UHGV virus genome: UHGV-0072281
Strand: one strand, 5' to 3'
Length of the DNA stretch: 64,000 nt
DNA from: a virus
Shown one piece after another: positions 225 through 46,836 of the stretch; position 1 is the first letter of the stretch, and every line of letters starts with the position of its first letter. A model generated the notes under the pieces. The model saw only the letters and a program-made list of their open reading frames with translations, did no database searches and was not told the origin of the DNA. A program made the position numbers and the translations under genes.

Positions 225-259
225 CCCCTACCTTCGGGTAGGGGGTTATTTAATTTTTT
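225..259 (+). terminator. Rho-independent terminator
   Basis: Hairpin ccccTACC-ttcg-GGTAgggg followed by T-rich run. Confidence 0.6.
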
Positions 260-260
260 C

Positions 261-300
261 TCAGATATATATTACCTTAGTGAGATTACACAGTAATCTC
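261..300 (+). promoter_or_regulatory. Promoter-like motif TCAGATATATATTACC plus downstream inverted repeat (gagattac/gtaatctc)
   Basis: Same 15-16 nt motif recurs at 20149, 24537, 62581 (variants at 5299, 58236), each followed by a different short hairpin and then an RBS and gene. Confidence 0.5.
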
Positions 301-7129: not shown

Positions 7130-7590
7130 ATTGCTTCGAATCTAAAGAAATTGTTGAGTTGTTTAAACAGCGTGAGAAAACCTCTTTCCGTGACTTGTAC
7201 GATTCTGATTATCGTCCACTATTTGCGGTATTGTTGAAACTGGATAAAGAACCCGAAATCGCGTTAGCAGAAGTCCAACACCATCATGTCAGTTTCGTGT
7301 TAACTGAAAACAAGGAACGTTGGGTAGATGACATACTGAACCGTATCGCGCTTTTGGAAACGCCACATCGCTGGGAAGTGGTTATTCAGAAATCGTTGTT
7401 CCCGCGTGAAGACATTTTCAACAACTATCGTCCGAAACAATATTACAACCACGATGGGTCGCCAAAACGTGCTTTCCTGGCACCCCAGCATTTCGTAACC
7501 TACGTAACGTTGCGTTACAAAGACACCGTGGTGCCGTTTGACACCTATTTGGAAATGCGTGAGATAATTTTAGGGAAGAATCCGATATGA
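7126..7590 (+). CDS. Hypothetical protein
   Basis: ATGA start/stop overlap with upstream gene at 7126-7129; track ORF extends to 7084. Confidence 0.55.
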   Translation: MNCFESKEIVELFKQREKTSFRDLYDSDYRPLFAVLLKLDKEPEIALAEVQHHHVSFVLTENKERWVDDILNRIALLETPHRWEVVIQKSLFPREDIFNNYRPKQYYNHDGSPKRAFLAPQHFVTYVTLRYKDTVVPFDTYLEMREIILGKNPI

Positions 7591-8069
7591 TTCAATTTTG
7601 TGTTGACGCAGAAAGATTGGCGTCATTTAAAGAGCGTGCTCAGTTTGCAGTTAAAAACGGTTACATTGAGAAAGGTGTTCGTGATACTTGTAAACTAATC
7701 AACGACCATCCGCACCTGGCGACAATGTGGAGCTGTGAAGGCCACGGTATGTATTCTAAGTCGCCTGGAATTCTGCACATTGTTTTTGCAACAGATGCTA
7801 TTGGAAGCCAGCTTCCAATGCAGATTACGTCTGAACTTGCAAAATGCGATCTGCCCAATTTCTGGAATCTTAGTTTGCGTCGCCTTTTTTTACCTGACGA
7901 ATTTTCGGATTTGGTATATCTTGAACCCGATTACGGGTTAAACACAGACGACACTTCCTACTGGGCTTGGAGAGTCGGATACATGCGCTTGATTAATCGT
8001 CCTGCGTTAGTTGAAGCACGACAAGCTCTTTATAAAGCATTTCACACAGTATTAGTTGAGAATAAATAA
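7587..8069 (+). CDS. Hypothetical protein
   Basis: 160-aa ORF, ATGA overlap. Confidence 0.6.
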   Translation: MIQFCVDAERLASFKERAQFAVKNGYIEKGVRDTCKLINDHPHLATMWSCEGHGMYSKSPGILHIVFATDAIGSQLPMQITSELAKCDLPNFWNLSLRRLFLPDEFSDLVYLEPDYGLNTDDTSYWAWRVGYMRLINRPALVEARQALYKAFHTVLVENK

Positions 8070-9493: not shown

Positions 9494-9687
9494 AAATTTG
9501 GTTGCCGATTGTAGTTTTTATCCTTATCGCAGGGGCACTAGCGAACGCCGAGTACGAGAGTCGTGTTTTAGAAACGAAACGCATGTTGTATCTGAATTGT
9601 ATAAAGGATTATACACCAGGCACAGAGCTTCATGCACAGGCTGTAAAAAGCTGTGCATTGATGGCTGAATCACAGACTCGCTCCTAA
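9490..9687 (+). CDS. Small membrane or secreted protein
   Basis: 65-aa ORF; N-terminal hydrophobic segment WLPIVVFILIAGALANA; ATGA overlap. Confidence 0.5.
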   Translation: MKIWLPIVVFILIAGALANAEYESRVLETKRMLYLNCIKDYTPGTELHAQAVKSCALMAESQTRS

Positions 9688-20104: not shown

Positions 20105-20148
20105 GGTAGCAGGGGCTAAGCCCCTGCTACCTTTTTCTTTATTTTTTC
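20105..20148 (+). terminator. Rho-independent terminator
   Basis: Hairpin ggtagcagggg-ctaag-cccctgctacc followed by T-rich run. Confidence 0.8.
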
Positions 20149-20194
20149 TCAGATATATATTACCTAGAGGAGAGTGAAATTTACATTCACTCCA
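20149..20194 (+). promoter_or_regulatory. Promoter-like motif TCAGATATATATTACC plus downstream inverted repeat (gagtgaa/ttcactc)
   Basis: Exact motif copy; precedes gene 20222. Confidence 0.5.
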
Positions 20195-34670: not shown

Positions 34671-35218
34671 TCGTCTTCTCCTTTAATTAAACCCAGCTCG
34701 ATCAGAAGATCAAAATCGATTTTACGAAACTTACTATCAAAATTTGAGTCCCAGTCAATATGTAGTCCTTGACGTTCGTCTTCTGTAAACTCGGGATAAA
34801 CTAAACTATGAAAAGTTTCCCTTTCATCGTAAAAACCATCGATGGTGGACTCTGGGTTTCGTGTGACATAAATTGTTACACCGGGAAACGATAAGCCTAG
34901 GGCGGCTACAGATTCAACACTCGGCTCTTGCAAAGCGCGTCGCAAAAGAACGATTTTATGTTTAGGGAATTCCAGCACGCGCTGTTCAAAACCTGGGTTT
35001 CGTTTCTCGATTTCAGCCACAGAAAGATCGGTAAGTTCTGTACAATACATCGGAATAACAACGGTAACTCCGTGACGAATTAATAATCGCTTAACATCGT
35101 CATTGAAATCTTCGCCGTTAATCTGTACATAACAGCCAAACAGTTTCGTAGTTTCTAAAAACTTTTCCAGAAAACGGAATTTACGCTTCGTAATATTGTG
35201 GATCAGAATTGGCTTCAT
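34646..35218 (-). CDS. Hypothetical protein in radical SAM/peptide locus
   Basis: 190-aa ORF overlapping the SPASM rSAM gene end. Confidence 0.5.
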   Translation of the reverse strand: MKPILIHNITKRKFRFLEKFLETTKLFGCYVQINGEDFNDDVKRLLIRHGVTVVIPMYCTELTDLSVAEIEKRNPGFEQRVLEFPKHKIVLLRRALQEPSVESVAALGLSFPGVTIYVTRNPESTIDGFYDERETFHSLVYPEFTEDERQGLHIDWDSNFDSKFRKIDFDLLIELGLIKGEDECLLLTKA

Positions 35219-36503
35219 CTTTGGCTTCTCTCAATTGTTTTTCTTTCTGGGCGCGTTCACGTACACAGCGAGGACAGTAACACATGCTATTATCGTGAAA
35301 ATCCTTCACGGATGTTGTGCCCATTTTCTGCTTCCAATATTCCGCAACCATCAATTTTGCAGTTGTCCAACCACACTGACGACGTTCAGCGTGATATGCT
35401 TTACGGTCTTCTAACGTCCCTTCCCCATTCTCGTAGGAAGCTGCTGCACAGCTACCACAAGCGTGTTTCATTGGACAACCTAAGCACGTCTCAGGATAGT
35501 TGGTGTATTGCGTCTGAATCTCTTCCAGCAGTTTCCCACCGTCTAAACTAACGAATTCGCGACCGACTAACTCAAATACCGCAGAGCGTGACGTTACAGT
35601 CGACATGAAACGGTTACAACCGAAAATCTTCCTGTCAAACCCTAAACAAGTCATGTGCGTTAATGTCCCGCAGAACGGGCGCAAGCGTTCCGGGTTTAAA
35701 CGTACAGTATCGTTGTAAAGTAGCTGATCACGCCAGTTCGGTTCCCAGATAGTGTCGAAATCTAACCCTTCCGGGATGATATGCGAAAGGGTATTACGTG
35801 GGTTGGTGTGTAAACCCTTTTCAACCCAATAATCGACTACATCCATCATTTGTAGCGCTATCGACGTAGCCATACTCCGTGGCATAATGTCTTCGAAGGT
35901 TACGTTACCAGAAATGGTTCCACCTCCCGCCAAATCGATTAGGGATTTCATACCCGCCGCATAATGTGGGAGTGTCTCCAAAGTAAATGTCGCTTTAACC
36001 CCAAGCTCCGCGATACCTACTTCTTTTAGATAATTGTAACCACGTACAGCGGCCTCGTAGGAACCTTCGCGACTCGTTGTAAAAATACGGTACTTATCGT
36101 GCGACTCAGGTAACCCATCAATAGATACCCCGATAGAAAGTCTGTCCTTCCAACGTTCAATAATTTCCCTGTTCAACGGCCTATCTAATAATGTCCCATT
36201 AGTAGAGATACTAAACATAAACGGACGTTTATGTTCTTCACACAACTGCTCGGCTGTTTCGAAAGCAGTCATTAGAAGCTTAGGCTGCATAAACGGTTCA
36301 CCGCCGATAATGTCAATGATGACTTCTACGTTTGGTAAATCTTTATCGCGTTCAAAGCAGGCATGAAGAAAGTCTACAATATCCGCTGCTTTGTTATTGC
36401 GGGGATATTTACGCTCGTAACAATACTCACAGTCCAAATTACACGACAAGTTTGTAACAATCTGGTAAGTCAACTGTTTCGGGTAATTATTTTCTTGGTT
36501 CAT
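35181..36503 (-). CDS. Radical SAM enzyme with C-terminal SPASM-like Cys-rich domain (putative peptide-modifying maturase)
   Basis: N-terminal CNLDCEYC (C-x3-C-x2-C), IIGGEPF glycine-rich SAM motif, C-terminal Cys clusters incl. CLGCPMKHACGSC. Confidence 0.8.
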   Translation of the reverse strand: MNQENNYPKQLTYQIVTNLSCNLDCEYCYERKYPRNNKAADIVDFLHACFERDKDLPNVEVIIDIIGGEPFMQPKLLMTAFETAEQLCEEHKRPFMFSISTNGTLLDRPLNREIIERWKDRLSIGVSIDGLPESHDKYRIFTTSREGSYEAAVRGYNYLKEVGIAELGVKATFTLETLPHYAAGMKSLIDLAGGGTISGNVTFEDIMPRSMATSIALQMMDVVDYWVEKGLHTNPRNTLSHIIPEGLDFDTIWEPNWRDQLLYNDTVRLNPERLRPFCGTLTHMTCLGFDRKIFGCNRFMSTVTSRSAVFELVGREFVSLDGGKLLEEIQTQYTNYPETCLGCPMKHACGSCAAASYENGEGTLEDRKAYHAERRQCGWTTAKLMVAEYWKQKMGTTSVKDFHDNSMCYCPRCVRERAQKEKQLREAKDEANSDPQYYEA

Positions 36504-37410
36504 TTAATACTCCACTATTACGGTTGGCCATAACCACTCGTCGAATATACTCGTAGGCTTCTAACCCGATGGAACAAGCTAATTGGTTACATCCCGATTC
36601 TAATAATCTCGGGGCATTTTGCAACTGATATTCGGTTCCATCTGCTCTTAACCATAAACTATTGCTGCATACGTTACACCCACCATCAAAAACTTTGCTT
36701 ACGACATAGTCACACCTTTTCGAGTTGGAAACATTCAGTCTTTCTATATTTTCCTGAATTCTAAAATACCCGTAAATAAAGTTCATAACGTGATCGGGAG
36801 ATAACGGTTTTGGCATATTTGCGTCTAACAGCAACGTCATGGTACGATAACCGTAGTGATAGATCGCATTATGAAGCTCAATAATGTCTTCATGCCACCG
36901 TTTGTTACCCAACTGTTCTCGAGTTAAAACGGCCCATGTATGAACATTTTCAAGCTCATGCATTACTTCTAAAGCTTCGTAGCAATCATCGCTAATAAAA
37001 CGCTTAAAAGGGCGTTCAGACAACTCAAACCCGTCGATGCTAACATATACGTTATCAAATTGTTTTAACAACGGTAGATGCGTTTTACGCATCTTTAAGC
37101 CATTGGTGTATAACTGATGTTTGAGTTCTGGGCGAACTGCTTTTAACTCGTCAACAAACGCCTCAATTTTACGAGTGGCTAACAAAGGCTCACCACCCGT
37201 CCATTGAATCTCGGTAATTGTTGGGTTAGCTTCTAACGCCTCCATAATTCGGTCACGTTGAAACTCTCGAGAAGAATCTTCACGATTCATGTAATAGGCT
37301 CCGCCGCAGAAACTACAGTCCAGATTACATTTGGATGTAGTAATAACGGCTAATATAGTTGGATTATCAAATAGCTGATCTGATAATTTTGGTTCCGCAT
37401 TGGTCGCCAT
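36487..37410 (-). CDS. Radical SAM enzyme (paralogue B)
   Basis: VITTSKCNLDCSFCGG (C-x3-C-x2-C), WTGGEPLL; C-terminal Cys residues; paralogue of 39018-39929 with blocks of perfect nucleotide identity. Confidence 0.8.
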   Translation of the reverse strand: MATNAEPKLSDQLFDNPTILAVITTSKCNLDCSFCGGAYYMNREDSSREFQRDRIMEALEANPTITEIQWTGGEPLLATRKIEAFVDELKAVRPELKHQLYTNGLKMRKTHLPLLKQFDNVYVSIDGFELSERPFKRFISDDCYEALEVMHELENVHTWAVLTREQLGNKRWHEDIIELHNAIYHYGYRTMTLLLDANMPKPLSPDHVMNFIYGYFRIQENIERLNVSNSKRCDYVVSKVFDGGCNVCSNSLWLRADGTEYQLQNAPRLLESGCNQLACSIGLEAYEYIRRVVMANRNSGVLNEPRK

Positions 37411-37432
37411 TGCAGGTGACTCCGTTAATTAT

Positions 37433-38320
37433 TTAATTATAGTCGATAGCGAACAATGGATCTTCGTCGAAATTGACTCCAGGTTTTAAAACCTTAGTCG
37501 AATTATACGCCTCTAGCAACCGATTAAGATCGTTATAACGACTATTCATTCTTTTGAGGTCTTCTAAGGTCACAATACGATCAAGCATCGGCTTAACGGC
37601 CTCGGCTTCTTCATCAGTCAATTCAACCTTAGACAACAAAAAACTAACAAGTTTAGAAATATCAGCCTCGGTTACTGGACTTTGGCCAAATCGTATTTGA
37701 ACAAGATGTTGCATCCATGGTTTACGAATACGCTTCGTAATAACATGCTCATCAGTAATGGCTTTCCAAACAGAACGTTCACGAATCCATTCGAACTTAT
37801 AGCTATAGGCCATTAAATCAGCTAAATGTGCAATCCCGAGGTCCTGATAACCTTCAATGTTGGTGTATGGTTCACTGTCGGAATACTCTTCAACATCCTT
37901 ACCAACAAGAGTATAGTAATACGGAAAAGCCCCCATGTAATCTGGACTCCACCATCTCCGAACCATAGGCTTAGCGTCAAGCTCAGCAAACGGTGTAAAA
38001 AAAAGTTCTAAATCGCTACCAGCATTTAGAACTCCGTCACTGAAGAAGTATTTACCATCAACAATCATTCCATAAAGTTCATCATCTCCTGTAAAAACTA
38101 TCACACGTTCGACCGGCAGATCACGAATTGTAAAAGTATTTTCTACAGAGATATTATCACGGTTGACGATATCACGACCCCGTAATTTCGGCCATTCGCC
38201 AGGTAGCATGGTAATTAAACGAACGTCGTCACTTAAATGATAACGTACAGAATCTGGAGAAGAGATTTGCAAAGGATGGTTAAATGTAGTGTTATATGCT
38301 AAATGTAAATCGTTTTTCAT
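37433..38320 (-). CDS. Hypothetical protein between precursors and radical SAM gene
   Basis: 295-aa ORF; no recognisable motif. Confidence 0.55.
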   Translation of the reverse strand: MKNDLHLAYNTTFNHPLQISSPDSVRYHLSDDVRLITMLPGEWPKLRGRDIVNRDNISVENTFTIRDLPVERVIVFTGDDELYGMIVDGKYFFSDGVLNAGSDLELFFTPFAELDAKPMVRRWWSPDYMGAFPYYYTLVGKDVEEYSDSEPYTNIEGYQDLGIAHLADLMAYSYKFEWIRERSVWKAITDEHVITKRIRKPWMQHLVQIRFGQSPVTEADISKLVSFLLSKVELTDEEAEAVKPMLDRIVTLEDLKRMNSRYNDLNRLLEAYNSTKVLKPGVNFDEDPLFAIDYN

Positions 38321-38343
38321 TGAATACCTCTGACACGTTTCTA

Positions 38344-38553
38344 CTACTTATTACCGCCAGCACCACGGCTACAACTACCGCTACAGGACCAGCTACACCC
38401 ACCGTTACAGTTATAGTGACTCAACGGTAAACCAGAAAGGTTATTAGTGGACGACACCGTACCCTGGTTTGCAATATAGTTGTTTGCTCCTGCTGTGGTA
38501 ATGTATCCTTCCGCCGTTACTAATCTGTCGCGTATGTTTTTAAGACTTATCAT
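38344..38553 (-). CDS. Cys-rich precursor-like peptide A (leader + short CxxxC core)
   Basis: 69 aa: leader MISLKNIRDRL...HYN then core CNGGCSWSCSGSCS; conserved leader and junction shared with B and C. Confidence 0.65.
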   Translation of the reverse strand: MISLKNIRDRLVTAEGYITTAGANNYIANQGTVSSTNNLSGLPLSHYNCNGGCSWSCSGSCSRGAGGNK

Positions 38554-38556
38554 TTC

Positions 38557-38955
38557 TCATCTTCCCGTACACGATTGCGAACAGCCACCATGACAGGTAC
38601 GACTACATGTACCTGTACATGTAGTCGTACATTGACCTATACATGTCCCCGTGCACCCACCAGAACATGAACTAGTACAACCTGAACATCCAGAACTACA
38701 ACCAGAAACACAGTTTGCTGAACATGAGGAACCACAACCTCCAGAAGCATTACCGGTACAACCACCAGAACAACTGGAGCACGTCCAGCTACAGCTACCA
38801 CCACAGTCGTAATGATTTTTAGGTTGCCCGCCAAATAGGTCGACATTATTCGTAGCCTTTCCACGAATATAGTTCTGTACTGCTCCAGTGTTTTTTAGCG
38901 CGGAAGAATCTATATTATCCAAGCGCGCTTTTAAAGAAGATAAACCAATCGCCAT
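38557..38955 (-). CDS. Cys-rich precursor-like peptide B (leader + long CxxxC-periodic core)
   Basis: 132 aa: ~50-aa leader then ~80-aa core with about 20 Cys at regular 4-residue spacing in G/S/T background, beginning DCGGSCSWTCS. Confidence 0.7.
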   Translation of the reverse strand: MAIGLSSLKARLDNIDSSALKNTGAVQNYIRGKATNNVDLFGGQPKNHYDCGGSCSWTCSSCSGGCTGNASGGCGSSCSANCVSGCSSGCSGCTSSCSGGCTGTCIGQCTTTCTGTCSRTCHGGCSQSCTGR

Positions 38956-39017
38956 TTTAACACCTACTGGTTCAGTGCCAGCTAAGGCACATTATAATTC
39001 ATTCTCTGTAAAAAATA

Positions 39018-39929
39018 TCACAATTTTGCCGGAATCCTATTCTTAGCCCCTACTACTCGTCGTATATAATCGTAAGCATCTAAGCCAACCTTTCTGGCTA
39101 AGTCACTACAGCCATGTTGCGTTACGATTTCAACGTTTTTTACTTGATTCTGGACACCGTCAGACTCGATACGTAAACAACGACTACATGTATTACAGGG
39201 TTCATCAAATAACGCGTTTAGCGTAAACGCGCACTCGCTTCGATTGGACGAATTCAGTCTTTCTATATTTTCCTGAATTCTAAAATACCCGTAAATAAAG
39301 TTCATAACGTGATCGGGAGATAACGGTTTTGGCATGTTTTTGTCCAAAACTAGCGACATCTCGCAAAAACCGTAATGGTAGATGTGATTATGTAGCGCAA
39401 TTATATCCTCATACCAGCGTTTATCACCGATACGTTCTCGTGTCAAGACTGCCCAGGTACGAATATTTTTCAATTCGTAAATTGTCTCCAACACCTCGTA
39501 TTGTTTTTCTTCGATAATCCGCATAAATGGACGCTCTGATTCTTTGAATCCGTCCATGCTAAAAAAGATGCTATCGAAACCCTTTAACAACGGTAGATGC
39601 GTTTTACGCATCTTTAAGCCATTGGTGTACAGGTAATGATCACAGCGAGGATACTTCTCCCTTATCTCTTCTATAAGGGCATCAATTTTACGCGAAGCGA
39701 GTAATGGTTCACCTCCCGACCACTGAATATTTGTGATGGTCGGGTTATTTTCCAGCGCCTCGATAATACTTTTCTTTTGTACTTCTGCGGTTGTATCCTC
39801 TCTATGCATGTAATAGGCTCCGCCGCAGAAACTACAGTCCAGATTACATTTGGATGTAGTAATAACATTTAACGTTCTTGGTTCAGAATACAATTGATCG
39901 GATACTGTCGGTGTGGTTAACTCTATCAT
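39018..39929 (-). CDS. Radical SAM enzyme (paralogue C)
   Basis: VITTSKCNLDCSFCGG, WSGGEPLL; immediately downstream of precursor C. Confidence 0.8.
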   Translation of the reverse strand: MIELTTPTVSDQLYSEPRTLNVITTSKCNLDCSFCGGAYYMHREDTTAEVQKKSIIEALENNPTITNIQWSGGEPLLASRKIDALIEEIREKYPRCDHYLYTNGLKMRKTHLPLLKGFDSIFFSMDGFKESERPFMRIIEEKQYEVLETIYELKNIRTWAVLTRERIGDKRWYEDIIALHNHIYHYGFCEMSLVLDKNMPKPLSPDHVMNFIYGYFRIQENIERLNSSNRSECAFTLNALFDEPCNTCSRCLRIESDGVQNQVKNVEIVTQHGCSDLARKVGLDAYDYIRRVVGAKNRIPAKL

Positions 39930-39953: not shown

Positions 39954-40346
39954 TTAAGTCGGTCCTGAACAAGACGCACATGCGCCACTACATCCCGAGC
40001 TACAACGCCCGGAGCATCTACCACTGCATGTAGCGCTGCAACCAGTGCACCCACCAGAACACGTAGCGCTGCAACCAGTGCATTGATTACCGCAGGCGGA
40101 TGAACAGCTTCCAACACACACTGAGGTGCACGTACCAGAACAACTTGTACAACCATGCGTACAACCGTTCGAGCACGTCCAGCTACAGCTACCACCACAG
40201 TCTAATCGACCCGGTGTCCAGCCTGAAAAAGAATCTGCGGCATTGTGAGCTTTTGATGCAACCTGTGGATCGACGCGGGGTCCTGTCGCCATTTGATTCT
40301 CTACGTTGGTGATTCGATCGCGAACGTTTTTAACACTAATCGCCAT
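39954..40346 (-). CDS. Cys-rich precursor-like peptide C (leader + long CxxxC-periodic core)
   Basis: 130 aa: leader MAISVKNVRDRI...GRLD then core CGGSCSWTCS... with about 21 Cys; AAGGA RBS. Confidence 0.7.
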   Translation of the reverse strand: MAISVKNVRDRITNVENQMATGPRVDPQVASKAHNAADSFSGWTPGRLDCGGSCSWTCSNGCTHGCTSCSGTCTSVCVGSCSSACGNQCTGCSATCSGGCTGCSATCSGRCSGRCSSGCSGACASCSGPT

Positions 40347-40412: not shown

Positions 40413-41618
40413 TTATTTCGTACCCGCTTCCGCCTGTACGTCATCACGAGACGTCAAGTTAGCGTTAACGTGTACTGGGGCCTGAACCACACCACCGTAT
40501 TTCTTGTGGAGATAACCGGTATGTGGGTTATCTGCCGCAATGTGGTTTTGTAGGTTCTGGTTCGCCTGACTGATTGCGTTCGTGTTGTTAGCAACTTGCT
40601 TTTTGAGCGCATCCAGGTTCTGTTGTAACTGATCGATTTTCTGATCGGTTTCTTGACCCTGTTGCTCTAACGCGTCAACACGCTGAATAACCTGATTCAG
40701 TTTCGTGTTCAAATCGTTAATGCTCTTTTGCAGCTGTAACACTAACGAGTTCAGGTTCGCTAACGCTAAAGCCATTTTCTGGTAGTTTTGAGCAACCACG
40801 TTAAGTTGGTCGTTCCACGCTTCCAGAGAGTTGACAACAGCGTCAATACGCTTACCTAAAGCTTCATCTGCTTTCTTCAGTGCATTGATTTCCGTAATCG
40901 TTGCGTCGATAGCAGACTGGACGTCACGAATAAGCGCACGGATTTCAGTTTCTGTTAACCCGTTAACCTGATGAATATCAAGATGGTGAACGTTACCGGT
41001 TGCGTTAATGTGTGCATTTAAAGCGTCTAAGAAGTCATTTTTCAGGCTTTCTAAAATCGCTTTAATGTTCTCTAACTGTACCGCGTCACCAGAACTGATC
41101 GCATCTTTAATACCCGCCAATACGGTAATGATATATTCAAAACCGTAAATATCACCTACGTCTTTATACGTCGGTGCAGAAGGGAATGTATCTGGTACGT
41201 TACGCAGGTCTTTAAACGCAACCGTACGGTTATCGAGGTTTAATTCAGCAATCGCCTGTTCGATAGCCACGATGTTCGCAGACTGTGGGCCACCAACGAC
41301 CTGCGCAGATACCGTAATATCTGTTGGAATCGCTGTGTTAGTGACCACCACCGCCATAACAATCTCGCGGTTTTTAGTCAGCTTTTCATAAGTCGGGTGT
41401 GCAAAAATCAACTCATAATCGGTACCACGTTCGTAGGTTGCATCCGGTCGGTTAGCAACGCGTAAACGGAACGTGTCCGCAAAGAACGGGCCGTCAGGAA
41501 AAGCAAAAGCACGGTTTACTTTACCTGTACCTAACGTAATCTGACGCTCCACAGCGTTAGACGTTAGCGAGCCCGTTAAATCTAAAGGATATTGATAAAC
41601 AATGGAGGCCATGGCCAC
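40413..41618 (-). CDS. Fibre-like structural protein with N-terminal shared anchor module and coiled coil
   Basis: 401 aa; N-terminal block (FPDGPFFADTFRLRV...GTDYEL) shared with the three giant proteins upstream; long heptad-like segment; C-terminal NPH motif. Confidence 0.6.
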   Translation of the reverse strand: MAMASIVYQYPLDLTGSLTSNAVERQITLGTGKVNRAFAFPDGPFFADTFRLRVANRPDATYERGTDYELIFAHPTYEKLTKNREIVMAVVVTNTAIPTDITVSAQVVGGPQSANIVAIEQAIAELNLDNRTVAFKDLRNVPDTFPSAPTYKDVGDIYGFEYIITVLAGIKDAISSGDAVQLENIKAILESLKNDFLDALNAHINATGNVHHLDIHQVNGLTETEIRALIRDVQSAIDATITEINALKKADEALGKRIDAVVNSLEAWNDQLNVVAQNYQKMALALANLNSLVLQLQKSINDLNTKLNQVIQRVDALEQQGQETDQKIDQLQQNLDALKKQVANNTNAISQANQNLQNHIAADNPHTGYLHKKYGGVVQAPVHVNANLTSRDDVQAEAGTK

Positions 41619-41652: not shown

Positions 41653-44600
41653 TTAAGATGTAAACATAAGATTGAACTGGAGTTTGTCGATATCGCGAGT
41701 TTCTGCTGGATTCACGCCGTCGTACGCGGTCGCTACGTAAACCGTTAGCGTACCGTCAGCGTACGAGGATATTACCGGTGGGTTAGTTCCGGTCTGACCA
41801 TCTCGCACAATGAGTGCAGGCTCGCTGGGAAGATTATCAAACTGCCCTTTAACCGCTTTGTATACCAAACCGGACTGTGCAGATAACTCCGTGTCTGTGT
41901 ACACACAGAACGGTGTATCGATGTCAGCTTGTTTGATAGTGGTACCGGATTCGACATCAACCAACTGTACTGCTCCAAACTTCGTGCGATAACTTTCATA
42001 TTCGTTCTTCGGAATAACAAAAGTAACGTGAACACGAACTTCTTCAGCGGGCTTAAAGCCAGTATGTTCTTTTTCCAAATACTGGTTGGCTGATAGTGTC
42101 ACTTTTTGTTCGGCCATCGAACCACCTGCCTGATTTATTCCGTACCGGGCTTCAACAATACCGGTTGGTGCAGCAAGTCGCAATTTCAGAGTCCGATTCG
42201 CCGTTCCTGGATTACCTGGCACTTGAACGCGCAAACTCAATGCTAAGTAAGCATACGTTCCGGTAGTCGGTTTCGTATACGCACCTATCCATTTCATGTT
42301 CGCAGACGCTGCCTGCGTGTTCTCAGAAGCAATGGCTGTCGTAATGTTAGCAGCTACCGCTTTCTGCCAGAATTGGTCGGCGCAGTTCTCATACGCTACT
42401 CTGGCCACGCTCTTATAACCCGAATACGTTTCCTGAATTGGTAACTTAGGACGCGTCGTGATGCCAGACAATGAACCCCATTTTTGACCGTCAACATACC
42501 CTTCGCCCTTCGACGCAGCCGCCGTAGGTGCTTTAACGGGCTTGTTAACCAGGGTTAATAGAGGACCCGTCTTTCTGTCAAACGCTGCTGCTACATCGTG
42601 TTGGTCGATAATTGCTGCGTGGTCTTCCAGCTCTTTCACACGACCCAAGCGTTTTACTTTGTCGATACTGATATCAGTAATACGGCTGGAATCGGTGGTT
42701 ACTGTCCCGACGAACAGTCTCGTTGAAGTATCGGCTAACTGCTCCAAACCGATGCGGTATTGTGCGGTAGAATCCGACACCTCAGCGTGCACGTAGAACG
42801 TCTGGTTAGCGTGATTGGACGGGAACTCGCTGCTTAAATCCACAGACCACGTTGGGAGTGTGTAGCTGCTGCTACCGAAGTCTAATTTGACTTCTTCTGT
42901 CAAATACAGAATCCAACCTTCCGCTGTCTCCACACCAGCAATAATAACCGCCTGACCACCGGTTGAGAACGTCGTGTCGTTAACGAACTCTGCGGCTGTA
43001 TACGCGTTACCTGAACAGAAAACACGGTCAGCTTTAGAGAAAATCAACGCCATCTTGTCCCAATTACCGGCACCCATATAGCATCCAGATTCTGGGTTAT
43101 GCGCAGGAGCCATCTGACGTAACTGCGACTTACCAGGAACGCGAGACCAACCTGAACCTGGGTCGTAGGTATACTTCGCGGCGTAACCTAGTGCGTTTAA
43201 GTCCCCGATATTTCGGATAGTTAACGTATAAGGTAGCCAGATACCGAAGTTAGTTCCATCCGCAGAAGCGAAAATAGGCTGTCCGACGCGACGGGTCTTA
43301 TTACCAGCCTCCTCTCTTAACGACTGATAACTTAAACCGTAGTCTTTATCCAGGAACCAATCCACCAACTTAAAGTTAGCGGAGTTGAACCGTAAGTAAC
43401 CATTCTCTTTAGATGGACTCACCATGAAGTAATAGATGTCAAGAATTCGACGACCGTTACTTAAGGTTTTCATGCACGAAACTTGCAACAAGTCAAATTC
43501 GCACACGGTGTTGATACCCAACATCCAAAGAGCAAACAATGCATTACCGGTTTGATGGGCAGCACTAATACGTTCGTTCGCGTATCCGTTCGCTTGGCCA
43601 GAAGGTGCACCGTCAACGATCATCCGAATCATTTTCTGTCGATCGGCTTCTTCTAGCGTTAAGCGTTCGGAAGACAACGCGAAGTTACCGTAGATGTTAC
43701 GATACGGGAACGTTTCTGCTTTGGTCAAATACCAACCGTTTAACTGTCCGTGACGCTCCTCAGGAGTCATGCACGCAGCCATACAGCTAAGCTGCTCATA
43801 TAGCGTTGGATCGACTTCACGACGGTTGTTGTTCGGACCGTATCCGCTATAACCCGGAACATCGTAAGGTTTGTTCGGATCAACTTCTACTTCGATGGTG
43901 TAACGGTTACGTGGGTTAGACATCCACACTTTGTTCGAACCACCAATCCCAACAGGATGGGAAAGACCAATGGTATAAATAGAACCACGACCTTTATCCC
44001 AGGTAAACGTTCCTTCGCCTGAGGTATTGTTTGGGTTATCGTAACGCAGATAATCGAAAAATTCTTTGCCTTGTGTTCCTTTAATAGAAACGTTAGGCAT
44101 TTGGTCCGCGTCGTTAATCTGCCAGCAGGAAAGCATCATTCCTGTTCCATTAGGCTTAGCGTACGTTGCAAAACAACGATTGTTTGCTTGACCACCGCCC
44201 CACTTACGGCTGGTTTCTACAGTTGAACCATCCGCGAAAGAGAGTGTAGTAGCATCAGCCTTGATGGGAAAGCGTTCGCGGCCTTCTAACGTAACCTTGC
44301 CCGTCGACGTATCGATTGTAAAACTTGTTGCCCACTGACGAAAGTTAATTTGTGAGCTGTCAGCCGCTGCAAACCACACAGTAGGCATATGGTTCACACG
44401 AATCACGCCGTCGCGCACTGCACAAGCATGGTTACATTCTGGACCGTGAACAAAGTTGCAACCAATTGTCCATTTAGCCCGTGCTTCCGGCGTCAAATAC
44501 GTAAAGAACTGACCCGTTTGTGACTCTTCGGTTTTCTGGCCAATGCGTAGGCAGAGGTTATCTCCGAATTGTCCCATCTCCCCGTTTAGTGTTACGCGTT

Positions 44601-46836
44601 CAAACTCCAGCGTGGTGCTAGTAGACAAATCGTCCTTACGTAGACGCCAAGCTGCTACTGCGTAAGCAGAGTTATTTACCGTAGAGCGGAGAAGATAAAC
44701 GTAATCCTCAACCAACACAACATCATCGGCTTCTGGCCACGGATTCCAGGTTTGTTCCACAGTACCGCTGGGGTTGCCGTTACGGTACACGGGCATCGTA
44801 ACGCGACATACCACCGTGTGTTTAGTGTGATCCATCGAACCATTAAACAACACCAAATAACGGTTATTATCAGAACCCAGACAAATAATCGCTTCCTGAC
44901 CACCGATCAATATAGCTTTCAGGGTCACTCCAGGATATTTACTCATCCCGGCAGGGTGATATTTCACTGAGGTCTGCTGCGGATTTACAAACGCGTTTGA
45001 CGTGTTAATGTCAGCATAGCCGTAATAAATGGCTTCTGTACCCGGTACGCCGTTAGAACCGTTACGGAGCGAATAAACCTTACCCTGCTGATACCCAACA
45101 ACCCCTTTTTGATAAGACTGGTTTTTGGTATAACCCGAATAGTTACCTAGCGCTGGGATAGGTAAGAAGTTCTTGTTACCGAACTTCGCACCACCTACCG
45201 TCCACGCCGGTAAGATGGTATTCAGTTTATCAGAGACTTTCTTAATCTCTTTTGCGAACAGCCACCCTTGACGCGACGTGACAGCTTTATCGTTAGTAGT
45301 GTCAATCGCATCCCAGAGCTGCAAGATACCGTCAACCGATGCACTACCAATTGGAATGTTATCCAAGTCAGCAGTGGTGTGTGTATGCGTCTTCAAACTC
45401 TTGTTTTTCAACACGTTCGTTAACGCTTTCGTCACCGGCTTAGCACTTGGCGTGGTGTTATCCATCTTATCGGTACCGAAATCGGTTTTCGTTAAGGTTA
45501 ACACCATACTGTCGCCTACCTTAACAAACCCTTTACCGTTAACGGTATAGTCATCGTCAACGTACAGGTCCAAGCGGTCTTTTAATTCGGTTACGGCTTT
45601 CTGGGAGATAGCAGTACCTAACGCCGCAGACGTGGAGATATTCGTAATCGAGAACAACCCATAAACTGATTCGGTCGCTGTGGGAATATTCGCGTTTAAC
45701 GTAACCGGGTTAGTCTGTTTTGCGGTACCGTACGGTTTTACAGTGTCTGACGCTTTGAAATACGCGTTTGCTTCGAGCAACGTTACTGACGTCAGGTACA
45801 TGTTCACCATTTCTGGCGTAACCAGATACACGGAGTTATAAACCGGCGCTAATACATCCTGTTCTGACCCCGAGTGAACCCAAAGCGTATTCAGACCCGC
45901 ACTGAATTCAACCGCTAAACCTGATTCGTTGTTGTCCTGGTCTGCTTTAATCACCAACGGTTGTGGCGAGGTAATTAACCACTTATCACCGCGAATACTG
46001 ATGATGTGGCCACCTGACGTTTTAAACGTTAATTCAATACCGTTAGTAGTGCCCCATCGACCGTAAACAGTACCGAGGGCTTCACCCATTAACTGGTCAA
46101 CGTCTGATTGCTCAATACCCGCTGAACCCATCAGCGTAGCCAACTCGTCAATCGTCAACCCAAACGCTTTTGTAGCGTCAACAGCGCGGCCTAATACCGG
46201 GAGAGCAGCAATGTCGTCAGTGGTATAATGATGAGCGTTAGGATTCCGGTGGTGTTGGTATAACTCTTCGTCGAAAACCTTTTTACCGTTCTCGTAAATC
46301 AGGTTAGTAACTTCACTAAACGCAGCATCTAACTCTGTAGAACGCTTAATGATTTTCTTACGAATGTCTTCTAACGCCTTAACAACCTCATCTCTCAGAA
46401 TAGCTTCTTCTAAGTTAGCAGGCGGGTCGATTGGTTGAATAACCGGCGCATACGCCATTAGTTCAGACCAGTCCACGTTACGTGGGTCTTTCAGGTCAGT
46501 ACGAACTAAGAACTTCCCGATTTCAGATTGCGGTACACGATATTGACGTGCTACCCCTAAAATCTCATATTCGATTTCTGTTGCAGTAAGCAACATAAAC
46601 CCGCCGTAAATCTGATCTTGTTCAGCTTCTGCGAGTTCTTTAAAGTAATAGCCTAAATAGTAGTCCAACCCCTCAATCAGAGTACGACGTCCGTTAGGCG
46701 CGGTATCGTCGGCTACTGTGAGTTTTAATCCGATACGATAAAAAGGTCCTTCAGGTGGAATGACCACGTTAAATCGGTTAGGGTACGTTGCTGTGCTTAG
46801 CGTACCGTTAAACTGCGCCGCGTCTTCTCTCGGCAT
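41653..46836 (-). CDS. Giant tail fibre / tail spike-like structural protein
   Basis: 1727 aa; N-terminal block PPEGPFYRIGLKL...GLDYYL homologous to neighbours; AGGAG RBS. Confidence 0.65.
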   Translation of the reverse strand: MPREDAAQFNGTLSTATYPNRFNVVIPPEGPFYRIGLKLTVADDTAPNGRRTLIEGLDYYLGYYFKELAEAEQDQIYGGFMLLTATEIEYEILGVARQYRVPQSEIGKFLVRTDLKDPRNVDWSELMAYAPVIQPIDPPANLEEAILRDEVVKALEDIRKKIIKRSTELDAAFSEVTNLIYENGKKVFDEELYQHHRNPNAHHYTTDDIAALPVLGRAVDATKAFGLTIDELATLMGSAGIEQSDVDQLMGEALGTVYGRWGTTNGIELTFKTSGGHIISIRGDKWLITSPQPLVIKADQDNNESGLAVEFSAGLNTLWVHSGSEQDVLAPVYNSVYLVTPEMVNMYLTSVTLLEANAYFKASDTVKPYGTAKQTNPVTLNANIPTATESVYGLFSITNISTSAALGTAISQKAVTELKDRLDLYVDDDYTVNGKGFVKVGDSMVLTLTKTDFGTDKMDNTTPSAKPVTKALTNVLKNKSLKTHTHTTADLDNIPIGSASVDGILQLWDAIDTTNDKAVTSRQGWLFAKEIKKVSDKLNTILPAWTVGGAKFGNKNFLPIPALGNYSGYTKNQSYQKGVVGYQQGKVYSLRNGSNGVPGTEAIYYGYADINTSNAFVNPQQTSVKYHPAGMSKYPGVTLKAILIGGQEAIICLGSDNNRYLVLFNGSMDHTKHTVVCRVTMPVYRNGNPSGTVEQTWNPWPEADDVVLVEDYVYLLRSTVNNSAYAVAAWRLRKDDLSTSTTLEFERVTLNGEMGQFGDNLCLRIGQKTEESQTGQFFTYLTPEARAKWTIGCNFVHGPECNHACAVRDGVIRVNHMPTVWFAAADSSQINFRQWATSFTIDTSTGKVTLEGRERFPIKADATTLSFADGSTVETSRKWGGGQANNRCFATYAKPNGTGMMLSCWQINDADQMPNVSIKGTQGKEFFDYLRYDNPNNTSGEGTFTWDKGRGSIYTIGLSHPVGIGGSNKVWMSNPRNRYTIEVEVDPNKPYDVPGYSGYGPNNNRREVDPTLYEQLSCMAACMTPEERHGQLNGWYLTKAETFPYRNIYGNFALSSERLTLEEADRQKMIRMIVDGAPSGQANGYANERISAAHQTGNALFALWMLGINTVCEFDLLQVSCMKTLSNGRRILDIYYFMVSPSKENGYLRFNSANFKLVDWFLDKDYGLSYQSLREEAGNKTRRVGQPIFASADGTNFGIWLPYTLTIRNIGDLNALGYAAKYTYDPGSGWSRVPGKSQLRQMAPAHNPESGCYMGAGNWDKMALIFSKADRVFCSGNAYTAAEFVNDTTFSTGGQAVIIAGVETAEGWILYLTEEVKLDFGSSSYTLPTWSVDLSSEFPSNHANQTFYVHAEVSDSTAQYRIGLEQLADTSTRLFVGTVTTDSSRITDISIDKVKRLGRVKELEDHAAIIDQHDVAAAFDRKTGPLLTLVNKPVKAPTAAASKGEGYVDGQKWGSLSGITTRPKLPIQETYSGYKSVARVAYENCADQFWQKAVAANITTAIASENTQAASANMKWIGAYTKPTTGTYAYLALSLRVQVPGNPGTANRTLKLRLAAPTGIVEARYGINQAGGSMAEQKVTLSANQYLEKEHTGFKPAEEVRVHVTFVIPKNEYESYRTKFGAVQLVDVESGTTIKQADIDTPFCVYTDTELSAQSGLVYKAVKGQFDNLPSEPALIVRDGQTGTNPPVISSYADGTLTVYVATAYDGVNPAETRDIDKLQFNLMFTS

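What the first reader, a model, noticed from the sequence alone, without database searches (positions are those of the whole stretch)
36487..39929. Radical SAM paralogues B and C carry islands of perfect nucleotide identity (recent duplication or gene conversion)
Seen in sequence: three stretches are identical base-for-base between the two genes although flanks have diverged. These are roughly 36733-36816 vs 39252-39335 (~84 nt, encoding MPKPLSPDHVMNFIYGYFRIQENIERLN), 37067-37110 vs 39586-39629 (~44 nt, YTNGLKMRKTHLPLL) and 37289-37346 vs 39808-39866 (~58 nt, the VITTSKCNLDCSFCGGAYYM cluster motif). Inference: the precursor-plus-enzyme module was duplicated and is being homogenised by recombination, implying selection for two enzyme specificities with a shared catalytic core.
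Basis: seen in the sequence. Interest (0 to 1): 0.6.

Follow-up and report, generated by a model that had tools for sequence, protein, structure and literature searches.

The report
Gene-conversion patches between phage radical-SAM paralogues
Two old, strongly diverged copies of a small radical SAM enzyme gene in a giant (SPN3US-like) phage keep three short stretches base-for-base identical because the copies keep overwriting each other there by recombination; this is a clean but ordinary case of gene conversion, not a recent duplication.

Summary
rSAM B (36487-37410, minus strand) and rSAM C (39018-39929, minus strand) share exact runs of 84, 47 and 60 nt at a constant offset of 2519 nt. Elsewhere they are 57.6% identical, with synonymous sites saturated (pS 0.79). 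All 59 degenerate same-amino-acid codons inside the runs are identical, against 46 of 115 outside.

The cause is ongoing short-tract gene conversion. In five complete genomes from two lineages, each island is essentially identical between B and C within a genome, but its allele differs between genomes at six sites. The same segments are synonymously saturated between single-copy orthologues, so no intrinsic nucleotide constraint explains them.

- The duplication is old, not recent.
- Only the enzyme gene is extra. The three Cys-rich precursors are already adjacent in single-copy relatives such as SPN3US, and C sits in the 10-nt P1-P2 spacer.
- Only 64 residues are shared; the rest of the core is 58% identical.

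B's islands follow C's shallower divergence between lineages, which suggests C-to-B polarity. A fourth concerted island (32 nt) links precursors P1 and P2. Short metagenome contigs show B/C hybrids joined at the islands; whether these are real recombinants or assembly chimeras is undecided. This is a known kind of process and of moderate interest.

The parts
36487..37410 (-). rSAM B, 307 aa. It is the orthologue of the single small radical SAM gene of SPN3US-like phages, and its stop overlaps rSAM A by 17 nt.
   Evidence: It matches Pfam PF04055 at 52 bits against a cutoff of 29.5. It is 63% identical in amino acids to the SPN3US homologue in tblastn. Its position after the 295-aa gene and before rSAM A is conserved.
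39018..39929 (-). rSAM C, 303 aa. This is the extra paralogue, inserted between precursor genes P1 and P2.
   Evidence: It matches PF04055 at 51 bits. All 62 related GenBank phages have one copy only. C-type orthologues are found only in two-copy genomes.
36733..36816 (-). Island I1, B copy (gene columns 595-678). It encodes MPKPLSPDHVMNFIYGYFRIQENIERLN, the loop after strand 6 plus the start of the long helix that leads into the C-terminal Cys domain.
   Evidence: It is an exact 84-nt match to 39252-39335. The position in the fold comes from the AF2 model, mean pLDDT 83.5.
39252..39335 (-). Island I1, C copy.
   Evidence: In lineage 2 (L010, L011) the run is 95 nt and carries GAG instead of GAA at column 660 in both copies.
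37064..37110 (-). Island I2, B copy (columns 301-347), encoding YTNGLKMRKTHLPLL. It contains the hairpin AGATGCGT-AAA-ACGCATCT at 37076-37094.
   Evidence: It is an exact 47-nt match. Four sites differ between the window and L003/L018, but B = C in each genome. The hairpin folds with z = -4.4.
39583..39629 (-). Island I2, C copy (hairpin at 39595-39613).
37288..37347 (-). Island I3, B copy (columns 64-123), encoding VITTSKCNLDCSFCGGAYYM, the radical SAM CX3CX2C cluster loop.
   Evidence: It is an exact 60-nt match. Column 99 is T in both copies of lineage 1 and C in both copies of lineage 2.
39807..39866 (-). Island I3, C copy.
39954..40346 (-). Precursor P1, 130 aa: an N-terminal leader followed by a CXXX-repeat, Cys-rich core.
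   Evidence: It matches phrog_6085 at E = 2e-40. Orthologues lie in the same place in SPN3US and L004.
38557..38955 (-). Precursor P2, 132 aa, a paralogue of P1.
   Evidence: It matches phrog_6085 at E = 1e-38. It has weak, sub-threshold NCBIfam hits to TIGR04117 and TIGR04114, the CXXX-repeat rSAM target families.
38344..38553 (-). Precursor P3, 69 aa, a short paralogue.
   Evidence: It matches phrog_6085 at E = 2e-24.
40171..40202 (-). Fourth island, P1 copy. It is 32 nt and encodes DCGGSCSWTCS at the leader/core junction.
   Evidence: It is an exact match to 38777-38808. It evolves in concert across genomes, and the identity is absent in the single-copy phages even though they encode the same or a closely similar peptide motif.
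38777..38808 (-). Fourth island, P2 copy.
37433..38320 (-). A conserved 295-aa gene of unknown function (phrog_8030) lying between the two paralogues.
   Evidence: It matches phrog_8030 at E = 5e-136. It is present in the related loci examined here: SPN3US, L003, L004, L010 and L018.
35181..36503 (-). rSAM A, 440 aa, a SPASM-type peptide-maturase-like enzyme. It is not part of the B/C conversion.
   Evidence: Its best NCBIfam match is TIGR04115, the CXXX-repeat target family maturase, at 120 bits, E = 1e-34, which is below the curated cutoff of 350.

Best explanation
B and C are old paralogues lying as direct repeats 2.5 kb apart, and they exchange short patches of DNA by non-allelic homologous recombination (gene conversion).

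Shown:
- One small rSAM gene is ancestral in this phage group.
- A second copy sits between P1 and P2 in one clade only.
- The two copies are saturated at synonymous sites everywhere except three segments of 47-95 nt.
- Those segments are essentially identical between B and C in every complete two-copy genome examined, yet carry different alleles in different genomes. This is concerted evolution.

Inferred:
- The three segments are the most constrained parts of the protein, so they kept enough nucleotide identity for strand invasion or template switching.
- Each event re-creates perfect identity and so makes the next event easier.
- Diverged flanks stop the tract, which gives sharp island edges.
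- B's islands share C's shallow between-lineage divergence rather than B's own deep one, so the flow is probably mostly C to B.
- Crossovers in the same patches would delete or duplicate the intervening 2.5 kb and create B/C hybrid genes.

The result is two enzymes with an identical Fe-S cluster loop, strand-3 segment and core-to-tail linker, but a different remaining core and, above all, a different C-terminal Cys domain.
For: Synonymous identity:
- 59 of 59 same-amino-acid codons are identical inside the islands, against 46 of 115 outside. Permutation p is at most 1.5e-5 for the longest run and 0 in 200,000 for the second and third.
- Nei-Gojobori pS for B against C is 0 in the islands and 0.79 outside.

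No intrinsic constraint:
- Between the single-copy orthologues L004B and SPN3US, pS is 0.77 in the island segments and 0.77 outside.
- Between winB and SPN3US it is 0.81 against 0.90.

Concerted evolution:
- Exact B = C runs are 60/47/84 nt in the window, 60/47/83 in L003, and 51/38/95 in L010 and L011.
- Alleles differ between genomes at columns 99, 312, 318, 328 (a Thr/Ser change), 336 and 660, always in both copies.
- I2 differs at four sites between the window and L003/L018, although their B genes are 98.2% identical and their C genes 96.1%.

Age of the paralogues:
- C forms its own long branch inside the Salmonella/E. coli phage group.
- All 62 GenBank relatives are single-copy.

Polarity:
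- Between winB and L010B, pS is 0.18 in the islands and 0.77 outside.
- Between winC and L010C it is 0.21 and 0.41.

Generality: a fourth island between P1 and P2 behaves the same way.

Recombination at the islands: hybrid contigs L005, L006 and L007 have every breakpoint inside an island.
Against: - No reads were available, so non-reciprocal transfer was not observed directly and the tracts are inferred from end products.
- The polarity rests on only about 38 synonymous sites in the islands. It could also arise if B's flanks had been replaced by exchange with other phages.
- I2 contains a strong hairpin (z = -4.4), so a sequence-level role for that one island is not fully excluded.
- Whether C arose by duplication inside the genome or by acquisition from a related phage is unresolved. 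Bootstrap support is 44% or lower.
- The hybrid contigs could be assembly chimeras. Several large contigs break exactly at the islands.
Confidence: 0.85

Rival explanations
1. Recent duplication: the islands are what remains of a young duplicate whose other parts diverged quickly.
For: The two genes are collinear, with a constant offset and no indels until the last codons.
Against: - Synonymous sites outside the islands are saturated (pS 0.79) and dN is 0.41, as deep as B against SPN3US.
- C-type genes from two phage lineages with pS 0.41 between them both carry the islands.
- Island alleles change in concert after the lineages split, which a one-off duplication cannot produce.
Confidence: 0.02
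2. Selection on the nucleotide sequence itself: the islands are RNA or DNA elements (structure, regulatory site, recombination signal) that must be kept exact in both genes.
For: I2 folds into an 8-bp hairpin with z = -4.4. All four islands of the window lie in one gene cluster.
Against: - The same segments are synonymously saturated between single-copy orthologues (pS 0.77-0.81).
- Island alleles differ between two-copy genomes at synonymous sites and at one non-synonymous site.
- I1, I3 and the P1/P2 island show no unusual folding (z = +1.1, -1.5 and +1.6).
- In L018 B the I2 hairpin loop is inverted and the gene is still intact.
Confidence: 0.05
3. Assembly or consensus artefact: reads from one paralogue were used to build or polish the other.
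For: The islands do disturb assemblies. Contigs L012 and L013 end in I1, L014 starts in I1, and L015 and L016 start near I3.
Against: - The same three islands are seen in contigs of 107-227 kb from IMG/VR (two), NCBI GCA_015624795.1 and ENA (metaSPAdes-style NODE and MEGAHIT k141 names), with lineage-specific alleles.
- De Bruijn assemblers break or mis-join at repeats. They do not create identity between sequences that differ.
Confidence: 0.02
4. The islands are mainly crossover points for exchanging gene segments between co-infecting phages (mosaicism). On this view B's non-island parts were swapped in from other phages while the islands stayed, rather than B being converted by C.
For: - The locus is mosaic between lineages: per-gene nucleotide identity ranges from 67% to 90%, and the left block is 86.5% against 77% for the right block.
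- B's flanks are as deep as its neighbours, the 295-aa gene and A.
- The hybrid contigs switch parent exactly at the islands.
Against: - Exchange with outside phages cannot make B equal to C inside a genome, nor make both copies change together.
- Single-copy relatives are only 82-91% identical in the islands, with no long exact runs to recombine with.
- This process can add to intragenomic conversion but cannot replace it.
Confidence: 0.2
5. Adaptive recombination joints: the islands are kept because they let the phage shuffle the catalytic core and the C-terminal domain, or drop the cassette between them, producing hybrid maturases as a source of diversity.
For: - Hybrids of both reciprocal types exist as contigs: c-core + B-tail directly followed by rSAM A (L005, and P0031 on four more contigs), and b-core + C-tail followed by P2 (L007, a MEGAHIT k141 contig, and L006).
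- I1 lies exactly at the domain boundary.
Against: - The deletion-type hybrid lacks P2, P3 and the conserved 295-aa gene.
- All hybrids are on short contigs (8.4 kb or less), from the kind of repeat that breaks assemblies.
- No complete genome carries a hybrid.
- Conversion alone explains the islands without invoking any benefit.
Confidence: 0.1

Closest known systems
Ectopic gene conversion and concerted evolution of bacterial paralogues, for example rRNA operons in E. coli (PMC8022953) and tufA/tufB in Salmonella (the latter from my own knowledge)
   Same: Paralogues in one genome stay identical over tracts while orthologues drift. Identity includes synonymous or neutral sites, and the process depends on homologous recombination.
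   Different: Here the paralogues are otherwise saturated. Conversion is confined to three micro-tracts of 38-95 nt inside a 0.9-kb gene, in a phage genome, and the copies have clearly different C-terminal domains.
Recombination at conserved motifs ('His boxes') in T-even phage tail-fibre adhesin genes (Tetart et al. 1998, from my own knowledge; not checked here)
   Same: Short conserved coding motifs embedded in diverged phage genes act as recombination sites and delimit swappable segments.
   Different: That system acts mainly between phages and swaps host-range domains. Here the partners are two paralogues in one genome, and the demonstrated outcome is homogenisation, not swapping.
Radical SAM / CXXX-repeat peptide systems (NCBIfam TIGR04115 maturase with TIGR04114 and TIGR04117 targets) and SPASM/twitch RiPP maturases such as SuiB, anSME and EpeE
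   Same: The cluster context matches: Cys-rich CXXX-repeat peptides next to rSAM enzymes. TIGR04115 is the best hit of rSAM A. The best fold matches of B are SuiB, DesII, viperin, anSME and EpeE.
   Different: All scores are far below the curated cutoffs. B and C are short (about 305 aa) with only three invariant C-terminal cysteines. The cluster sits in a jumbo-phage baseplate/fibre module, and its chemistry is unknown.

Membership tests
Ectopic (interparalogue) gene conversion | Donor and acceptor are paralogous sequences in the same genome. | tested here: met
   B and C are on one contig, 2519 nt apart and in the same orientation. The same holds in L003, L010, L011 and L018.
Ectopic (interparalogue) gene conversion | Tracts whose identity exceeds the background at silent sites beyond chance. 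| tested here: met
   pS is 0 inside and 0.79 outside. 59 of 59 same-amino-acid codons are identical inside against 46 of 115 outside. Permutation p is at most 1.5e-5.
Ectopic (interparalogue) gene conversion | Inside the tract, paralogues group by genome; outside it, they group by orthology. | tested here: met
   Six island sites vary between genomes but are B = C within every genome. Outside the islands B groups with B and C with C.
Ectopic (interparalogue) gene conversion | Transfer is non-reciprocal: one copy is overwritten and the donor is unchanged. | not testable with these tools
   This needs parent and product molecules or reads. Only an indirect polarity signal is available: B's islands have C-like divergence.
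Recent tandem or segmental duplication | Uniformly low divergence over the duplicated unit, including silent sites. | tested here: not met
   Nucleotide identity is 57.6% and pS 0.79 outside the islands. The flanking precursor genes are not part of the duplicated unit.
Radical SAM superfamily (PF04055) | A CX3CX2C motif and a Pfam score above the gathering threshold. | tested here: met
   B scores 52.3 bits and C 51.3 bits against a cutoff of 29.5. C28, C32 and C35 are invariant in 21 homologues.
SPASM / twitch auxiliary-cluster domain | A C-terminal Cys motif binding one (twitch) or two (SPASM, 7 Cys) auxiliary Fe-S clusters. | tested here: inconclusive
   Only C245, C248 and C274 are invariant in the tail. 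No SPASM Pfam hit was found. The fold resembles SuiB, anSME and EpeE at TM about 0.5.
TIGR04115 CXXX-repeat-target rSAM maturase (for neighbour rSAM A) | A score at or above the curated NCBIfam cutoff (350 bits). | tested here: not met
   The score is 120 bits, E = 1e-34. It is the best hit but below the cutoff.

The most novel reading that the evidence does not exclude
The islands may be more than by-products of conversion. They could work as built-in joints that let this phage clade re-assort the radical SAM core and the C-terminal (substrate or auxiliary-cluster) domain of its two peptide maturases, and delete or duplicate the P2-P3-295aa cassette. That would create hybrid enzymes and precursor sets that exist as real subpopulations, as the hybrid contigs from at least three samples (L005, L006, L007) and the P0031 contigs hint.
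Probability: 0.12. Interest if true: 0.6.

Novelty: new member of a known kind. Interest (0 to 1): 0.35.

Why it matters
This is an unusually clean natural example of micro-tract gene conversion in a virus. There are four patches of 32-95 nt in one gene cluster. Each stays identical within a genome and drifts between genomes, while the rest of the genes are saturated.

Three practical consequences follow.
- Trees or identity values for these rSAM genes are misleading unless the islands are masked.
- The 84-95-nt repeats break or mis-join metagenome assemblies of these jumbo phages. The resulting B/C hybrid proteins are already in public protein collections.
- The pattern marks which parts of the two enzymes are interchangeable (Fe-S loop, strand-3 segment, core-tail linker) and which carry the difference (the C-terminal Cys domain). 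That is a useful guide for anyone dissecting the still uncharacterised Cys-rich-peptide/rSAM cluster next to the baseplate/fibre genes of SPN3US-like phages.

It does not reveal a new kind of mechanism.

Tried and rejected
- A megablast of the 6.7-kb locus against 50,697 GenBank phage records found nothing. tblastn was needed to place the window among SPN3US-like phages.
- Exact-pattern scans with part of I1 found only the two known IMG/VR contigs, only JACXXQ010000002.1 in the JGI metagenomes, and nothing in the GTDB genomes. No further two-copy lineages came from these scans.
- Literature searches for SPN3US + radical SAM, jumbo phage + radical SAM + cysteine-rich, and CXXX repeat + radical SAM gave nothing on this cluster. 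PMC5105663 only identifies the neighbouring 188-kDa protein (gp168) as a baseplate/fibre protein.
The reality of the hybrids stays open.
- NJ trees of the island-masked core and tail could not place the origin of C. Support is 44% or lower.
- The direction of conversion could not be polarised from single-copy outgroups, because C never occurs alone. Only the between-lineage pS argument was possible.
- RNA folding of the islands showed that only I2 is unusual.
- I considered and dropped a diversity-generating retroelement and homing-endonuclease-driven conversion. The repeats are exact rather than A-biased variants, and I did not search the window for a reverse transcriptase or endonuclease.
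- PDB sequence and fold searches gave only generic rSAM and peptide-maturase matches.


Full report
**What is there**

The window comes from an SPN3US-like jumbo phage. The locus has no DNA match at 85% identity or more in GenBank phages. The proteins of the region match Seoulvirus and Erwinia jumbo phages.

All the genes below lie on the minus strand:

| Gene | Coordinates | Note |
|---|---|---|
| 1727-aa protein | 41653-46836 | SPN3US gp168 type, baseplate/fibre protein (PMC5105663) |
| 401-aa virion protein | 40413-41618 | |
| Precursor P1 | 39954-40346 | Cys-rich CXXX-repeat peptide |
| rSAM C | 39018-39929 | extra paralogue |
| Precursor P2 | 38557-38955 | |
| Precursor P3 | 38344-38553 | |
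| 295-aa gene | 37433-38320 | conserved, unknown function |
| rSAM B | 36487-37410 | |
| rSAM A | 35181-36503 | SPASM-type; best NCBIfam hit is the CXXX-repeat-target maturase family, below cutoff |

At a fixed offset of 2519 nt, B and C share exact runs of 84, 47 and 60 nt.

- Outside these runs the genes are 57.6% identical in nucleotides and 50% in amino acids.
- The key control is silent sites. Among codons that encode the same degenerate amino acid in both genes, 46 of 115 are identical outside the islands and 59 of 59 inside.
- A conservative permutation of that codon string reaches the longest run in 3 of 200,000 shuffles, and the second and third longest never.
- Nei-Gojobori pS is 0 inside and 0.79 (saturated) outside, with dN 0.41.

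Amino-acid conservation therefore cannot explain the islands.

**It is not a recent duplication, and not a duplicated precursor-plus-enzyme module**

SPN3US (L001) and a closer IMG/VR relative (L004) carry P1, P2 and P3 directly adjacent, with a 10-nt P1-P2 spacer. These are followed by the 295-aa gene, one small rSAM gene and rSAM A. All 62 related GenBank phages have exactly one small rSAM gene. The only extra element in this phage is gene C, placed in the P1-P2 spacer.

The silent-site divergence between B and C is as deep as that between B and the SPN3US orthologue. With the islands masked, C forms its own long branch within the Salmonella/E. coli phage group. Its exact origin, internal duplication or acquisition from a relative, is unresolved because bootstrap support is 44% or lower.

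**It is gene conversion: the islands evolve in concert**

I recovered further two-copy genomes:
- Lineage 1: L003 (IMG/VR, 225 kb) and L018 (ENA, 225 kb).
- Lineage 2: L010 (GCA_015624795.1, 223 kb) and L011 (ENA, 227 kb).

In every one of them the same three segments are exact B = C runs. The lengths are 60/47/83 nt in L003 and 51/38/95 nt in L010 and L011. In L018, I2 is interrupted only by a loop inversion in the B copy, described below.

The island alleles nevertheless differ between genomes, always in both copies together. This holds at columns 99, 312, 318, 328 (a Thr/Ser replacement), 336 and 660. The sharpest case is I2. The window and L003/L018 differ there at four sites in both B and C, although their B genes are 98.2% identical and their C genes 96.1%. 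At least one conversion event therefore post-dates that very recent split.

Paralogues that match within genomes while orthologues differ is the defining signature of concerted evolution.

**Rivals tested**

- Nucleotide-level constraint is excluded. In single-copy phages the very same segments are silent-site saturated: pS between L004B and SPN3US is 0.77 inside and 0.77 outside, and between winB and SPN3US it is 0.81 inside and 0.90 outside. Three of the four islands also fold no better than shuffles.
- Only I2 contains a strong hairpin (AGATGCGT-AAA-ACGCATCT, z = -4.4). In L018 B its loop is exactly inverted (AAA to TTT, Lys to Phe). This is a template-switch signature and shows that the sequence is not untouchable.
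- An assembly artefact is very unlikely. The islands recur in independent assemblies made with different pipelines, and each carries lineage-specific alleles.

**Polarity (inference)**

Between lineages 1 and 2, B is deeply diverged outside the islands (pS 0.77) but not inside them (0.18). C shows 0.41 outside and 0.21 inside. B's neighbours, the 295-aa gene and A, are as diverged as B's flanks, at 67-84% nucleotide identity. C is the best conserved gene of the locus, at 90%.

B's islands thus share the history of C rather than that of B's own block. The simplest explanation is conversion mostly from C into B. Replacement of B's flanks by exchange with other phages is an alternative contribution.

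**Why there**

The islands are the most conserved protein segments of the family. They are 88% identical to SPN3US, against 51-61% for the rest of the core. In an AlphaFold model of B (mean pLDDT 83.5) they map as follows:
- I3 is the CX3CX2C cluster loop after strand 1.
- I2 is the end of strand 3 plus the next loop and helix.
- I1 is the loop after strand 6 plus the first part of the long helix that leads into the C-terminal domain.

That C-terminal domain carries the three further invariant cysteines C245, C248 and C274. It is the most diverged part between B and C, at 39% amino-acid identity and dN 0.53.

My reading is inferred. Protein constraint kept enough nucleotide identity at these segments for recombination to start. 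Each event restores perfect identity and favours the next. Diverged flanks end the tract.

Both genes are under purifying selection (for C, dN 0.027 against dS 0.58 between lineages). Two functional enzymes that differ mainly in the tail domain is therefore a reasonable but untested conclusion.

**Hybrids**

Three short ENA contigs are mosaics of a lineage-2 B and C, with every switch inside an island:
- L005 is P1 - C(1..I1) + B(I1..end) - rSAM A, a deletion-type junction.
- L007 is the 295-aa gene end - B(1..I1) + C tail - P2, the reciprocal junction, on a MEGAHIT k141 contig.
- L006 is P1 - C(1-72) + B(73-678) + C tail - P2.

A second L005-type protein (P0031) is on four more contigs of up to 8.4 kb, but could not be fetched.

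These are what unequal crossing-over at the islands would produce. They are also what a mis-resolved 84-95-nt repeat would produce. Large contigs demonstrably break at the islands: L012 and L013 end in I1, L014 starts in I1, and L015 and L016 start near I3. I cannot decide between the two without reads.

**A fourth island**

P1 and P2 share an exact 32 nt (40171-40202 = 38777-38808) encoding DCGGSCSWTCS at the leader/core junction. Its allele differs between the window, L003/L018 and L010, but P1 equals P2 in each, apart from one edge mismatch in L011 and in L018. The single-copy phage L004 encodes the identical peptide motif with six silent differences, and SPN3US encodes closely similar motifs with more differences.

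These four islands are the only exact repeats of 30 nt or more in the 64-kb window.

**Verdict**

The module-duplication and recent-duplication parts are wrong, and "shared catalytic core" overstates what is shared. The process is a known kind (ectopic gene conversion between paralogues) in a new and very clean setting. It has practical consequences for phylogeny and assembly of these phages, and it gives a hint about which enzyme parts carry specificity.

Noticed in passing
window 40171-40202 and 38777-38808: This is a fourth exact-identity island (32 nt, peptide DCGGSCSWTCS) between precursor genes P1 and P2. Its alleles differ between genomes, but P1 equals P2 in each two-copy genome. The single-copy phages L004 and SPN3US encode the same or a similar motif without this identity.
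   Followed up: yes
window 37076-37094 and 39595-39613; L018 5001-5924 (B gene, columns 325-327): Island I2 contains a perfect 8-bp-stem hairpin, AGATGCGT-AAA-ACGCATCT (RNA z = -4.4). In L018 the B copy alone has the loop inverted (AAA to TTT, Lys to Phe), which is the exact reverse complement of the palindrome and so a template-switch signature.
   Followed up: partly
L005 488-1411, L006 449-1363, L007 156-1070; protein P0031: Short metagenome contigs encode B/C hybrid rSAM genes whose breakpoints all lie inside the islands. One of them joins P1 directly to rSAM A through a hybrid gene. A second hybrid protein (P0031) is on four more contigs of up to 8.4 kb. Real recombinants and assembly chimeras cannot be told apart without reads.
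   Followed up: partly
L012 (end at 9623), L013 (end at 9602), L014 (start), L015 and L016 (start): Contigs of up to 230 kb end or start exactly inside island I1 or near I3. The 84-95-nt repeats therefore break assemblies of these phages.
   Followed up: partly
window 38597-38630: A 34-nt perfect palindrome (GTACGACTACATGTAC AG GTACATGTAGTCGTAC) lies inside the P2 coding region. It is present in lineage 1 (window, L003) and absent from L010, L004 and SPN3US.
   Followed up: partly
window 38975-38990 (C-P2 spacer): The spacer holds a hairpin, GTGCC-TTAGCT-GGCAC, directly after a TATAAT-like motif. In lineage 2 it reads GTGTCC-TAGG-GGACAC, so the stem is kept through changes on both sides. It could be a promoter- or processing-associated element in front of P2.
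   Followed up: no
L010 about 7590-8042: Lineage-2 phages carry an extra non-Cys-rich ORF between P3 and the 295-aa gene that the window lacks. As a result the B-C spacing there is 2963 nt instead of 2519.
   Followed up: no
window 39018-39929 compared with L010: C is the best conserved gene of the whole locus between the two lineages, at 90% nucleotide identity. P1 is 81%, P2 76%, the 295-aa gene 67%, B 76% and A 84%. The locus is mosaic, with a break near 38330-38370.
   Followed up: partly
window 253-277 and 20141-20165: This is an exact 25-nt AT-rich direct repeat (ATTTTTTCTCAGATATATATTACCT) at two distant sites. It is possibly a shared promoter or regulatory motif.
   Followed up: no
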